The position numbers and the translations under genes were made by a program. A stretch of 39,342 nucleotides of DNA from Escherichia phage HC12, in sequence record OL362275.1; one strand, given 5' to 3'. Below the pieces are notes generated by a model, which worked only from the letters and a program-made list of their open reading frames with translations, had not been told where the DNA came from and did not search any database. Shown piece after piece: positions 10,041 to 25,839 of the stretch. Each line of letters starts with the position of its first letter. Position 1 is the first letter of the stretch.

Positions 10041-10531
10041 TGAGCAAGAAGTTTAAACTGTTAGTAGATGCGCATGGCTGGCCTAGTGGGACTATAGTTA
10101 CCAAGTGTGAGAATGACCCCGTACCAGATTCAAGAATGACCCTAGTTGAGTGCCAGATTCCAGGCGCATACAAACATGGGTCTAACGGCTGCAATACTCA
10201 GCCTGAGGGTATGTGGGGAGCATGGGTCCTTAATTGGAAACTTGAGGAAATCAAGCCGGAAGAGAAACTCACTGGTGTCCAAACCACTCAAGTCCTGCCA
10301 GCTTCGAGCGTACCGCCTGTGACTTTGAAGCGTGAAGTCCTGACCATCGACAAGATTGGTGTAGGCCAGACGTTCATCGTCCATGGAAAGCCTGAAGAAG
10401 TTTACGTGAAGATTAGCAACTCACACGTCTTCAACCATAAGCATCTCCAGATGCACACCACGGACGCACAACGCTTCACCCAGCACCTGAATCTGGTTGT
10501 CGTAGAATTGGTGGTGTACAATGGTAAGTAA
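10040..10531 (+). CDS. Hypothetical protein inserted between endonuclease I and lysozyme
   Basis: 163-aa ORF; ATG overlaps the gene 3 stop (TGATG). No counterpart at this position in T7. No motif recognised. Confidence 0.65.
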   Translation: MSKKFKLLVDAHGWPSGTIVTKCENDPVPDSRMTLVECQIPGAYKHGSNGCNTQPEGMWGAWVLNWKLEEIKPEEKLTGVQTTQVLPASSVPPVTLKREVLTIDKIGVGQTFIVHGKPEEVYVKISNSHVFNHKHLQMHTTDAQRFTQHLNLVVVELVVYNGK

Positions 10532-10979
10532 GGTACAGTTCAATCCACGGTCCCGGACCGACGCTATCTTCGTACACTGTTCGGCTACCAAGCCAGAGAT
10601 GGACATCGGGGTAGAGACCATCCGTATGTGGCACAAGCAGCAAGGCTGGCTGGACGTAGGCTACCACTTTATCATCAAGCGCGATGGCACTGTGGAAGAG
10701 GGACGCCCGGTCAATGTCGTAGGGTCACACGTTAAGGACTGGAACTCACGGTCTGTAGGCGTCTGCCTTGTAGGTGGAATTGACGCTAAGGGCAAGTTTG
10801 AAGCTAACTTCACTCCGGCCCAGATGAACTCCCTGCGCAACAAGCTGGCTGACCTGAAGGACTTGTATCCTCAGGCAGAAATCAAATCACATCATGACGT
10901 AGCACCAAAGGCGTGTCCAAGTTTCGACTTGCAACGCTGGCTGTCTACCAATGAACTGGTCACTTCCGACCGAGGCTAA
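10521..10979 (+). CDS. 3.5: N-acetylmuramoyl-L-alanine amidase (T7 lysozyme)
   Basis: 152 aa, near-colinear with T7 gp3.5: TDAIFVHCSATKP, GWLDVGYHFIIKRDGTVE, HHDVAPKACPSFDL, C-terminal ELVTSDRG. Confidence 0.95.
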   Translation: MVSKVQFNPRSRTDAIFVHCSATKPEMDIGVETIRMWHKQQGWLDVGYHFIIKRDGTVEEGRPVNVVGSHVKDWNSRSVGVCLVGGIDAKGKFEANFTPAQMNSLRNKLADLKDLYPQAEIKSHHDVAPKACPSFDLQRWLSTNELVTSDRG

Positions 10980-10997
10980 ACTATCACCGTAGGGATG
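10975..10997 (+). promoter_or_regulatory. Phage RNA polymerase promoter, variant CACCGTAGGG core
   Basis: GCTAAACTATCACCGTAGGGATG; two core substitutions relative to the consensus. Confidence 0.55.
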
Positions 10998-11042
10998 AGA
11001 CCACGAGTCTTGTCCCTTTGTTCGCATTTGAGATTAAGAAAT

Positions 11043-11121
11043 GTCTCCATAGCTCAAACGGTAGAGCGGCGGGTCGTGATGGCCTATTGCGATTAGGGTT
11101 CGAATCCCCGTGGAGACGCCA
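11043..11121 (+). tRNA. tRNA-like element (canonical acceptor, D and T arms, encoded CCA; anticodon arm non-canonical)
   Basis: GTCTCCA...TGGAGAC perfect 7-bp acceptor stem. D arm GCTC-AAACGGTA-GAGC with G18G19. T arm with GGTTCGAATCC. Discriminator G then CCA. The 26 nt between the D and T arms do not form a clean 5-bp anticodon stem; best fold gives loop GTCGTGA (anticodon CGU, Thr) with an imperfect stem. Confidence 0.45.
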
Positions 11122-11132
11122 CTAAGGAGTGA

Positions 11133-12836
<1,704 letters not shown>

Positions 12837-25763: not shown

Positions 25764-25787
25764 CTTATTGAAGGGCCTATAGATTTA

Positions 25788-25810
25788 CCTTAACTATCAC
25801 TATAGGGACT
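25788..25810 (+). promoter_or_regulatory. Phage RNA polymerase promoter (phi13-like) flanked by a 12-bp inverted repeat
   Basis: CCTTAACTATCACTATAGGGACT. AAGGGCCTATAG at 25771-25782 is the exact reverse complement of CTATAGGCCCTT at 25809-25820. Confidence 0.7.
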
Positions 25811-25839
25811 ATAGGCCCTTAAGGTTATAAGGAGACTTT

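What the first reader, a model, noticed from the sequence alone, without database searches (positions are those of the whole stretch)
11043..11121. tRNA-like element in the leader of the primase-helicase gene
Between the promoter at 10975 and the gene 4 RBS lies a 79-nt segment with a perfect 7-bp acceptor stem (GTCTCCA/TGGAGAC), a canonical D arm (GCTC-AAACGGTA-GAGC), a canonical T arm (GGTTCGAATCC), a discriminator G and an encoded CCA. The anticodon arm does not fold canonically: the best option gives anticodon CGU with an imperfect stem and a longer-than-usual anticodon/variable region. T7 itself has no tRNA. The element could be a functional but unusual tRNA, or a tRNA-like structure that recruits RNase P/RNase Z to cut the gene 4 message 14 nt before its start codon.
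Basis: seen in the sequence. Interest (0 to 1): 0.75.

Follow-up and report, generated by a model that had tools for sequence, protein, structure and literature searches.

The report
Pseudo-tRNA cassette before phage primase gene
A 79-base tRNA-shaped element sits in the leader of the primase-helicase gene of this T7-like (Kayfunavirus) phage; it is real and its cloverleaf is kept by selection, but its anticodon loop looks non-decoding, other annotators have already flagged it as a "pseudo-tRNA", and nobody has tested what it does.

Summary
Window 11043-11121 (+) is called a tRNA by ARAGORN and passes Rfam RF00005 (36.7 bits, threshold 29).

- **Source:** the window is a Kayfunavirus, 99.4% identical to Escherichia phage LM33_P1.
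- **Insertion:** the element is a clean 88-nt insertion with a TAAG duplication. It lies between a phage-promoter leader and the ribosome-binding site of gene 4. It occurs in 34 of 217 related phage records.
- **Structure:** ten distinct variants support a full cloverleaf, with compensatory changes in the acceptor, T and anticodon stems.
- **Conservation:** the tRNA body varies about 3.6-fold less than gene 4 third codon positions. The anticodon arm varies at about the third-position rate.
- **Anticodon register:** The loop is CGUGAUG, which lacks U33 and a purine at 37. Its nominal anticodon switches between UGA and UUA among close relatives.

Decoding is therefore unlikely. My best reading is a non-decoding, tRNA-derived RNA that RNase P cuts out of the leader, giving a small stable RNA and a defined 5' end for the downstream message. 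That mechanism is inferred, not shown.

GenBank records and one paper (PMC8402661) already note the element as a tRNA or pseudo-tRNA. Interest is moderate.

The parts
10521..10979 (+). Upstream gene: N-acetylmuramoyl-L-alanine amidase (T7 gp3.5-like lysozyme)
   Evidence: ORF. Pfam Amidase_2, E = 8e-17.
10979..10995 (+). Phage RNA polymerase promoter-like site (AACTATCACCGTAGGGA). Inferred transcription start near 10992.
   Evidence: Member of an 11-copy + strand family with consensus AACTATCACTATAGGGA; 12 matches against 0.39 expected. The start position is inferred by analogy with T7 promoters.
10992..11016 (+). 10-bp hairpin at the 5' end of the transcript (GGGAUGAGAC-CACGA-GUCUUGUCCC)
   Evidence: Folded. 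Paired positions 10998 and 11010 change together (A-U to G-C) in relatives.
11017..11042 (+). Spacer before the element, ending in the A/U-rich run AUUAAGAAAU, with U at position -1. The left TAAG copy is at 11035-11038.
   Evidence: The 5' flank is A/U-only in the window, pO91 and Kc166A.
11039..11126 (+). 88-nt insertion relative to the empty site (AAAT + the 79-nt element + C + TAAG)
   Evidence: The empty site reads ...GATTAAGGAGTGACCAATG in L019 and L100-L112. The occupied site reads GATTAAG|AAAT...CTAAG|GAGTGACC.
11043..11121 (+). tRNA-like element (pseudo-tRNA), 79 nt including the encoded CCA
   Evidence: ARAGORN. Rfam RF00005 at 36.7 bits. Cloverleaf covariation. RNAalifold consensus.
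11043..11049 (+). Acceptor stem, 5' strand (pairs with 11111-11117)
   Evidence: 98.6% of cells paired, and 5 of 7 pairs show a change on both sides. Four of those five rest only on the shifted Kc166A stem. pO91 has U2-A74 changed to C-G.
11052..11067 (+). D arm (4-bp stem, 8-nt loop AAACGGUA with G18 G19)
   Evidence: Stem invariant in 10 variants.
11070..11086 (+). Anticodon-arm equivalent: stem positions 28-32 with 40-44, loop positions 33-39 (CGUGAUG, window 11075-11081)
   Evidence: Substitutions C28U, G29A, U32C and G40A all improve pairing in this register. RNAalifold adds an invariant C33-G39 pair and pairs G27-C48 and C28-G47. Segregating sites 6/17.
11087..11093 (+). Variable region, 7 nt (UUGCGAU), longer than in class I tRNAs
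   Evidence: Its sequence differs in Kc166A.
11094..11110 (+). T arm (imperfect 5-bp stem, loop UUCGAAU)
   Evidence: In Kc166A, G55-C65 becomes A-U and the A53.C67 mismatch becomes A-U.
11111..11121 (+). Acceptor stem 3' strand (11111-11117), discriminator G (11118), CCA (11119-11121)
   Evidence: The CCA is replaced by AACC-U in Kc166A.
11123..11132 (+). Shine-Dalgarno block UAAGGAGUGA for gene 4, starting 2 nt after the CCA
   Evidence: Invariant in all relatives, with or without the element.
11136..12836 (+). Gene 4: T7-type primase/helicase
   Evidence: ORF. Pfam Helic-prim_T7_N, Toprim_2 and DnaB_C.

Best explanation
The element is a tRNA-derived accessory RNA cassette. It was inserted as an 88-nt block into the leader that follows a phage-polymerase promoter, directly in front of the ribosome-binding site of the next gene (gene 4 here).

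**Transcription (inferred from position).** It is transcribed as part of the gene 4 message, both from its own weak-variant promoter and by read-through from upstream promoters. No terminator-like site lies on the + strand here.

**Fold (shown by covariation).** It folds into a tRNA cloverleaf. The acceptor stem, D/T elbow and T arm are under purifying selection. The anticodon loop is free to vary and is not built for decoding.

**Processing (inferred from substrate features, not shown).** Host RNase P recognises the acceptor/T-arm stack, the elbow and the 3' GCCA, and cuts between U11042 and G11043. This removes the upstream RNA. It leaves a 5' end buried in the acceptor stem, two nucleotides upstream of the Shine-Dalgarno block. 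The message then has a uniform, structured and protected 5' end whichever promoter made it.

If the 3' side is also cut and trimmed, a stable RNA of about 76-79 nt is released. It probably does not read codons.
For: **tRNA likeness.** ARAGORN and Rfam RF00005 above gathering score in the window and in 7 relatives.

**Cloverleaf tested on 10 distinct variants.**
- 90.4% of cells paired, against 32-56% for slid controls.
- 6 pairs with changes on both sides; 4 of them rest only on the shifted Kc166A acceptor stem.
- 0 of 500 shuffles reached the observed values.
- RNAalifold finds the same four arms independently.

**Selection.** Segregating sites among 14 close copies:
- tRNA body 5/62.
- Gene 4 third codon positions 38/130 (Fisher p = 0.0008 against the body).
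- Leader 15/51 (p = 0.005 against the body).
- Anticodon arm 6/17, close to the third-position rate.

**Age.** A copy 79.8% identical over the aligned 88 nt, with stems preserved, is present in Kosakonia phage Kc166A. That phage's genome is only 68.8% identical to ST31 (PMC8402661).

**RNase P substrate features in the window.** A 7 + 5 bp acceptor/T stack, G18 G19 with UUCGAAU, 3' GCCA, an A/U-only 5' flank and U at -1.

**Against decoding.**
- The loop is C-G-U-G-A-U-G, with G at the U33 position and U at the position-37 purine.
- C33 and G39 are invariant and able to pair.
- Loop positions 34, 36 and 38 vary, giving nominal anticodons UGA and UUA.
- Other annotators' tRNAscan-based pipelines labelled it tRNA-Pseudo(GTG) or tRNA-OTHER.

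**Position.** Always the same leader and ribosome-binding-site junction, whatever gene follows.
Against: - There is no transcript, cleavage or small-RNA evidence. The mechanism is inferred only from substrate features.
- 183 of 217 related records lack the element and carry an intact empty site. It is dispensable, and gene 4 is expressed without it.
- The leader already has a 5' hairpin that could protect promoter-proximal transcripts.
- The encoded CCA and the 1-72 pair are not kept in Kc166A. pO91 has A rather than U at -1.
- A purely cis-acting RNase P site would not need an anticodon arm, yet that stem is maintained.
- The 79 nt being 100% identical in phages whose wider 1.2-kb region is about 90% identical is partly a local effect. 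The leader and the first 400 nt of gene 4 are also only 1-4% diverged there.
- The low Rfam score alone does not exclude a working tRNA. Phage tRNAs in a T5-size contig score 30-74 bits.
Confidence: 0.45

Rival explanations
1. It is a working, if odd, elongator tRNA. It is charged by a host synthetase and used in translation: Ser (UGA) in the supported register, an ochre suppressor (UUA) in pO91 and PDP21P1, or Thr, His or Arg in other registers.
For: - Full cloverleaf with covariation in all variable stems.
- Encoded CCA and a discriminator base.
- It passes the Rfam gathering score.
- Some phage tRNAs score just as low.
- UCA is used at 15.3 per 1000 codons in the window's long ORFs.
- The identical acceptor stem, G73 and CCA occur in a bona fide tRNA-Arg(UCU) (L072).
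Against: - In the register supported by substitutions there is no U33 and no purine at 37. C33 and G39 can pair and shrink the loop to 5 nt.
- The nominal anticodon changes between near-identical copies: UGA, UUA, and variants at position 34.
- The variable region is 6-7 nt, which is neither class I nor class II.
- The D loop has U where ArgRS needs A20, and position 35 is not C (recalled identity rules).
- There is no long variable arm for SerRS.
- The anticodon arm varies at about the third-codon-position rate.
- tRNAscan-based annotations call it pseudo or undetermined.
Confidence: 0.12
2. It is a trans-acting tRNA mimic. The released RNA, made in large amounts by the phage polymerase, would bind or distract a host factor that handles tRNAs. 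Candidates are a tRNA-cleaving defence nuclease such as PARIS AriB, PrrC or a Schlafen-type enzyme, or a modification or processing enzyme.
For: - The whole L-shape, including the anticodon stem, is maintained, while loop positions 34, 36 and 38 change among otherwise identical copies. That could reflect an arms race.
- T7 is blocked by PARIS, which senses T7 Ocr and cleaves tRNA-Lys in the anticodon stem. T5 escapes with its own tRNA (PMC11464382).
- Phage tRNAs with altered anticodon loops have been proposed to evade anticodon nucleases (PMC10264068).
- Patchy, accessory distribution is typical of counter-defence genes.
Against: - The loop does not resemble any known nuclease target such as tRNA-Lys CUUUUAA.
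- Variation in the arm is no higher than at third codon positions (6/17 against 38/130, p = 0.59). Relaxed constraint explains it as well as an arms race does.
- No partner gene or defence phenotype is known.
- Release of a free RNA needs a 3' cut within 2 nt of the ribosome-binding site. That cut would cost a gene 4 message.
Confidence: 0.13
3. It is a decaying tRNA pseudogene with no function. It would be carried along because it sits between two highly conserved blocks (the leader and the 5' end of gene 4) that recombine freely among Kayfunaviruses.
For: - Absent from most relatives with no visible cost.
- The insertion site is a hotspot for unrelated cassettes.
- The surrounding DNA is also unusually conserved in the Enterobacter phages.
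- The T stem and anticodon stem carry mismatches.
- The literature calls it a pseudo-tRNA (PMC8402661).
Against: - The body varies 3.6-fold less than third codon positions and the leader.
- Compensatory or pair-improving changes occur in three stems, and none of the observed stem substitutions breaks a pair.
- It persists with stems intact in Kc166A at 79.8% identity against a 68.8% genome-wide figure.
Confidence: 0.15

Closest known systems
Phage-encoded tRNAs and 'pseudo-tRNAs' as annotated in Kayfunavirus genomes (Kc166A, DY1, ST31, LM33_P1; PMC8402661)
   Same: It is the same element. GenBank records label it tRNA-Thr, tRNA-OTHER or tRNA-Pseudo(GTG) at this position.
   Different: Earlier mentions are annotation notes only. 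I found no structural, evolutionary or functional analysis in the searchable literature.
Bacterial tRNA-mRNA co-transcripts, e.g. the E. coli thrU-tyrU-glyT-thrT-tufB operon (recalled from memory)
   Same: A tRNA lies upstream of a protein-coding gene in one transcript, and RNase P separates the two.
   Different: Those tRNAs are canonical and decode. Here the anticodon loop is non-canonical, and the spacer to the Shine-Dalgarno block is only 1-2 nt.
tRNA-like processing signals: MALAT1/mascRNA and the mitochondrial 'tRNA punctuation' model (recalled from memory)
   Same: A tRNA-shaped fold is used as an RNase P cut site that defines the ends of a neighbouring RNA. The anticodon arm is not used for decoding.
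   Different: Those systems are eukaryotic or organellar, and the mascRNA signal defines a 3' end. Cleavage is unproven here.
T7 RNase III site R3.8 between genes 3.5 and 3.8/4 (recalled from memory, Dunn and Studier map)
   Same: It occupies the same map position, just after a phage promoter between the lysozyme gene and the primase region. It plays the same presumed role of cutting polycistronic phage RNA.
   Different: It uses a different nuclease and a different fold. There is no ~20-bp RNase III-type hairpin here, only a 10-bp 5' hairpin.
Counter-defence tRNAs such as T5 tRNA-Lys against PARIS (PMC11464382) and anticodon-loop-variant phage tRNAs (PMC10264068)
   Same: It is a phage-borne accessory tRNA gene with an altered anticodon stem-loop, in a relative of T7, which PARIS blocks.
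   Different: Those tRNAs keep a functional anticodon and replace a cleaved host tRNA. This element has no conserved anticodon and no U33 or R37.
Plant-virus 3' tRNA-like structures (TYMV, BMV, TMV; cited in PMC4565877)
   Same: It is a viral RNA segment that mimics the tRNA L-shape and carries CCA.
   Different: Those lie at the 3' end of an RNA genome and use a pseudoknotted acceptor arm. This one is internal, in a 5' leader of a DNA phage, and has an ordinary acceptor stem.

Membership tests
tRNA (Rfam RF00005) | Covariance-model score at or above the gathering threshold | tested here: met
   36.7 bits against 29. Seven relatives score 35.9-38.7 bits. Kc166A stays below E = 0.01. In the window the model skips the anticodon arm.
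Canonical decoding (elongator) tRNA | 7-bp acceptor stem, discriminator base, 3' CCA | tested here: met
   Acceptor cells are 98.6% paired with compensatory changes. The CCA is not kept in Kc166A.
Canonical decoding (elongator) tRNA | D loop G18 G19 and T loop T-Psi-C-R-A for the elbow | tested here: met
   AAACGGUA and UUCGAAU. G18, G19 and the T-loop bases are invariant in 10 variants.
Canonical decoding (elongator) tRNA | 7-nt anticodon loop with U33 and a purine at 37, and positions 32 and 38 not Watson-Crick paired | tested here: not met
   In the register supported by substitutions the loop is C-G-U-G-A-U-G (G at 33, U at 37). The end bases C and G are invariant and able to pair.
Canonical decoding (elongator) tRNA | Anticodon conserved among orthologues | tested here: not met
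   ARAGORN gives Thr(cgt), Ser(tga) or Stop(tta) for copies that differ by 1-6 nt. Loop positions 34, 36 and 38 vary.
Canonical decoding (elongator) tRNA | Variable region of 4-5 nt (class I) or a long arm (class II) | tested here: not met
   6-7 nt between the anticodon stem and the T stem. Total length is 79 nt.
Canonical decoding (elongator) tRNA | Aminoacylation by a synthetase | not testable with these tools
   Needs acid-gel northern blots or a periodate assay. The recalled identity elements for Arg, Ser, Thr, His and Glu are not all present.
Bacterial RNase P substrate | Coaxial acceptor/T-stem stack of about 12 bp with an intact T-loop/D-loop elbow | tested here: met
   7 + 5 pairs, with one A.C mismatch and one U.G pair in the T stem. 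Both stems show compensatory changes.
Bacterial RNase P substrate | 3' RCCA and an unstructured 5' leader, preferably with U at -1 | tested here: inconclusive
   The window has GCCA, an A/U-only leader and U at -1. pO91 has A at -1, and Kc166A has AACC-U instead of GCCA.
Bacterial RNase P substrate | Cleavage at the +1 position in vivo or in vitro | not testable with these tools
   No transcript data are available, and I found no Kayfunavirus transcriptome paper.
T7-type RNase III processing site | Irregular hairpin of about 20 bp in an intergenic region | tested here: not met
   Only a 10-bp 5' hairpin at 10992-11016 and the cloverleaf are present. The inverted-repeat scan finds nothing here.
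Counter-defence replacement tRNA (T5 tRNA-Lys type) | A functional isoacceptor that carries the anticodon of the host tRNA being cleaved | tested here: not met
   No conserved anticodon, and the loop is unlike tRNA-Lys (PMC11464382).

The most novel reading that the evidence does not exclude
The element is a non-decoding tRNA mimic made in bulk by the phage polymerase. It would act in trans as a decoy or sponge for a host tRNA-targeting immune nuclease or another tRNA-handling factor. Under this reading the variable loop positions 34, 36 and 38 record an arms race rather than neutral drift.
Probability: 0.1. Interest if true: 0.8.

Novelty: new member of a known kind. Interest (0 to 1): 0.4.

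Why it matters
T7-like phages are usually described as tRNA-free, and their RNA processing is attributed to RNase III.

A tRNA-shaped, non-decoding element kept by selection in an mRNA leader would be a natural bacterial-virus example of tRNA punctuation. It would resemble the tRNA or ribozyme insulators that synthetic biologists place in front of genes. It could also be a tRNA decoy.

The system is easy to test. Natural isogenic pairs with and without the 88-nt cassette exist within one phage species: LM33_P1 carries it and vB_EcoP-101136BS1 does not.

On the practical side, current genome annotations label the element inconsistently as Thr, OTHER, Pseudo(GTG) or nothing. Reports built on those labels either count it as a real tRNA or miss it.

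Tried and rejected
1. **ARAGORN's Thr(CGU) register** (stem 26-30 with 38-42). Rejected because G40->A (SH5, L021, Kc166A) and U38->A break it. C28U, G29A, U32C and G40A all improve the 28-32 with 40-44 register.
2. **The minimum-free-energy 10-bp hairpin** 30-39 with 43-52 and a GCC triloop. It is not conserved in Kc166A or pO91; the pair probability falls to 0.00-0.02.
3. **Thermodynamic support for the fold.** Weak: z = -1.2 for both the element and the leader. The named cloverleaf is -19.4 kcal/mol against -28.0 for the minimum-free-energy fold. The case therefore rests on covariation, not energy.
4. **Host origin.** No match in 5,426 E. coli genomes, even at E = 10. The acceptor stem is typical of tRNA-Arg (54 of 66) and of tRNA-Lys in Bacilli (10 of 66). 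The 3' half resembles tRNA-Glu. No donor could be named.
5. **More distant homologues.** Pattern scans of viral, metagenome and genome collections returned only Kayfunavirus copies plus ordinary tRNAs.
6. **tRNAs next to related primase genes.** None of 80 IMG/VR loci encoding primase relatives (55-99% identity) carries any tRNA call.
7. **'100% conserved while the wider region is 90%' as proof of selection.** Partly rejected, because the neighbouring leader and the first 400 nt of gene 4 are also only 1-4% diverged in those phages. I replaced this with the segregating-site comparison.
8. **The mini-ORF ATG TCT CCA TAG** at 11041-11052. It is not conserved in pO91 or Kc166A.
9. **The weird 79-nt tRNAs in L006, L010 and L012.** They are unrelated and lie in a different, non-T7 context.
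10. **A scan for RNase III-type hairpins.** Uninformative.
Full report
**1. What is at the coordinates**

Window 11043-11121 (+) reads GTCTCCA-TA-GCTC-AAACGGTA-GAGC-GG-CGGGT-CGTGATG-GCCTA-TTGCGAT-TAGGG-TTCGAAT-CCCCG-TGGAGAC-G-CCA.
- ARAGORN calls exactly this span as tRNA-Thr(cgt). It is the only tRNA call in the window.
- Rfam RF00005 matches 11043-11118 at 36.7 bits (gathering score 29, E = 2.8e-4 for the whole window). The model skips the anticodon arm and marks one non-standard pair in the T stem.
- For scale, 41 tRNA matches in four unrelated loci scored 30-78 bits. Bacterial ones scored 54-78 bits, and those in a T5-size phage contig 30-74 bits. The score here is low but not outside the phage range.
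- Single-sequence folding gives no support. z = -1.2, and the minimum-free-energy fold replaces the anticodon arm with a 10-bp G.U-rich hairpin.

**2. Context**

The window is a Kayfunavirus, a K1F-like relative of T7. The 1.2 kb around the element is 99.4% identical to Escherichia phage LM33_P1.
- Upstream lies an Amidase_2 lysozyme gene (10521-10979). Downstream lies a T7-type primase/helicase gene (11136-12836).
- AACTATCACCGTAGGGA at 10979-10995 is one of 11 + strand copies of the phage promoter motif AACTATCACTATAGGGA. There were 12 matches against 0.39 expected.
- The inferred transcript starts near 10992 with a 10-bp hairpin at 10992-11016. That hairpin shows one compensatory A-U to G-C change among relatives.
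- The spacer ends in an A/U-rich run, then the element, then one C, then the Shine-Dalgarno block UAAGGAGUGA, then the ATG at 11136.
- No terminator-like site lies on the + strand here.

**3. It is an insertion**

Most relatives read ...TTCGCATTTGTGATTAAGGAGTGACCAATG at this spot (L019 and L100-L112). Carriers read GATTAAG|AAAT-[79 nt]-CTAAG|GAGTGACC. The element is therefore an 88-nt block with TAAG on both sides.
- Other cassettes use the same junction. Phage Pipis has a small transmembrane ORF there, bracketed by duplicated TAAGGAGTGACC blocks.
- In Citrobacter phage SH5 an HNH endonuclease gene follows the element, and in Kc166A a 179-aa ORF does.
- The element therefore belongs to the leader, not to gene 4 as such.

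**4. Distribution**

The flanks match 217 phage records, and the element is in 34 of them. Carriers infect Escherichia, Salmonella, Citrobacter, Enterobacter, Klebsiella and Kosakonia.
- Presence varies within one species. LM33_P1 has it, and vB_EcoP-101136BS1 does not.
- Pattern scans found one further copy in IMG/VR (L015, probably ST31) and two in metagenomes (L021, L024).
- None of 80 IMG/VR loci encoding primase relatives has any tRNA call.
- E. coli genomes hold nothing similar.

**5. Structure from comparison**

Ten distinct variants were aligned (A2). The cloverleaf tested was acceptor 1-7 with 69-75, D stem 10-13 with 22-25, anticodon stem 28-32 with 40-44, and T stem 52-56 with 64-68. 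Results:
- 90.4% of cells paired, against 32-56% when partners are slid by 1-3 columns.
- Six pairs have changes on both sides. Four of these rest only on the shifted Kc166A acceptor stem.
- 0 of 500 shuffles reached the observed values.

Individual changes:
- pO91 changes U2-A74 to C-G.
- Kc166A loses the A7-U69 pair on both sides, changes G55-C65 to A-U, and repairs the A53.C67 mismatch to A-U.
- In the anticodon stem, every observed substitution improves pairing in this register: C28->U (opposite A44), G29->A (opposite U43), U32->C (opposite G40) and G40->A (opposite U32).
- G40->A and U38->A break ARAGORN's Thr(CGU) register. The long minimum-free-energy hairpin is lost in Kc166A and pO91.

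RNAalifold, run without my structure, returns the same four arms. It adds an invariant C33-G39 pair and pairs G27-C48 and C28-G47. The arm then becomes 2 bp, a 3-nt bulge, 5 bp and a pentaloop N-U-N-A-N.

**6. Is it a decoder?**

In the supported register the loop is C33-G34-U35-G36-A37-U38-G39. Several features argue against decoding:
- The U33 position holds G (A in TM1, U in pO91). The position-37 purine is U (A in Kc166A and L021).
- The loop's end bases can form a Watson-Crick pair.
- The nominal anticodon is UGA in most copies and UUA in pO91 and PDP21P1.
- ARAGORN's label flips between Thr, Ser and Stop for copies differing by 1-6 nt.
- Other groups' tRNAscan-based annotations say tRNA-Pseudo(GTG) or tRNA-OTHER.
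- The variable region is 6-7 nt, which is neither class I nor class II.

Decoding is unlikely but not excluded.

**7. Is it under selection?**

Segregating sites per region among 14 close copies:

| Region | Segregating sites |
|---|---|
| tRNA body | 5/62 |
| Anticodon arm | 6/17 |
| Leader | 15/51 |
| Gene 4, third codon positions | 38/130 |
| Gene 4, first codon positions | 3/130 |
| Gene 4, second codon positions | 4/130 |

- Four of the five body sites are private to pO91, two of them forming a compensatory pair. The fifth is a homopolymer indel in a metagenome contig.
- Body against third positions gives p = 0.0008. Body against leader gives p = 0.005. Anticodon arm against third positions gives p = 0.59.
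- These copies share ancestry, so the p-values are indicative only.
- The 100% identity in Enterobacter phages, whose wider 1.2-kb region is about 90% identical, is partly a local effect. The adjacent leader and the first 400 nt of gene 4 are also only 1-4% diverged there.
- Kc166A keeps a copy 79.8% identical over the aligned 88 nt, with stems intact. Its genome is only 68.8% identical to ST31 (PMC8402661).

Together these results argue that the top half and the overall fold are maintained, while the loop sequence is free.

**8. Origin**

Among tRNAs that share the acceptor stem GTCTCC/GGAGAC and common D and T arms, 54 of 66 are tRNA-Arg and 10 are tRNA-Lys(UUU). One tRNA-Arg(UCU) from a Bacilli genome (L072) has the identical acceptor stem, G73 and CCA. 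The 3' half also resembles tRNA-Glu. No donor can be named.

**9. Mechanism**

- *Shown:* a tRNA cloverleaf maintained by selection; its location in a transcribed leader 2 nt upstream of a Shine-Dalgarno block; a non-canonical, unconstrained loop.
- *Inferred:* RNase P cuts at U11042/G11043. This rests on the 12-bp acceptor/T stack, an intact elbow, 3' GCCA, an A/U-only leader and U at -1. These requirements are established knowledge about bacterial RNase P, recalled rather than tested.
- The cut would give read-through and promoter-proximal transcripts the same structured 5' end next to the ribosome-binding site. This is the role RNase III site R3.8 is thought to play at the equivalent place in T7 (recalled).
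- Full 3' release would need a cut within the 1-2 nt before the Shine-Dalgarno block, or trimming back from further downstream. Either would cost a gene 4 message. A fused tRNA-mRNA species is therefore plausible.
- Confidence in this mechanism is 0.45.
- Rivals: a trans-acting mimic or decoy (0.13), a working odd tRNA (0.12) and a neutral relic (0.15).

**10. Prior knowledge**

Petrzik et al. 2021 (PMC8402661) state that a pseudo-tRNA gene is predicted in Kc166A at a position similar to that in phages DY1, ST31 and LM33_P1. Several GenBank records annotate it. I found no functional study and no Kayfunavirus transcriptome. The existence of the element is therefore already on record. What is added here:
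- the insertion anatomy;
- the corrected anticodon register;
- the covariation support;
- the contrast between a constrained body and a free loop.

**11. Verdict**

- The feature is real. It is a member of a known kind (phage tRNA-derived element), already noticed but unexplained.
The CGU anticodon is not supported, and RNase Z is an unlikely partner.
- Interest is 0.4.

Noticed in passing
L006:9943-10021, L010:175-253, L012:1647-1725: A 79-nt tRNA lies next to a tRNA-Met in ~40-kb viral contigs that are not T7-like. Its anticodon stem CAGAT/ATCTG encloses an 8-nt U-rich loop. ARAGORN calls it 'tRNA-??? (tttt)', so it may be a four-base-anticodon tRNA. It is unrelated to the Kayfunavirus element apart from the D arm.
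   Followed up: partly
window 25771-25782 and 25809-25820: A perfect 12-nt inverted repeat (AAGGGCCTATAG / CTATAGGCCCTT) brackets the phage promoter copy at 25792-25808.
   Followed up: no
window 11123-11138; L018:1066-1290: The block TAAGGAGTGACC(A/G)ATG is duplicated on both sides of accessory cassettes at this junction, for example a 59-aa transmembrane ORF in phage Pipis. The block appears to act as a recombination hotspot for small inserted genes.
   Followed up: partly
window 10992-11016: The transcript starts with a 10-bp hairpin that shows a compensatory A-U to G-C change among relatives. It resembles the 5' stem-loops of T7 late transcripts.
   Followed up: partly
window 10989: This window has G in the promoter (CACCGTAGGGA) where all 13 compared relatives have T (CACCTTAGGGA). 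The strong promoter copies in the window have CACTATAGGGA.
   Followed up: no
window 11041-11052: A three-codon mini-ORF, ATG TCT CCA TAG, overlaps the 5' end of the element. It shares AATGTC with the gene 4 start. It is not conserved in pO91 or Kc166A, so it is probably a relic of how the cassette was inserted.
   Followed up: yes
L072:5596-6075: An OLE RNA match (Rfam RF01071, 208.7 bits) lies beside the tRNA-Arg(UCU) whose acceptor stem is identical to the element's, in a Bacilli metagenome-assembled genome. It has no bearing on this finding.
   Followed up: no
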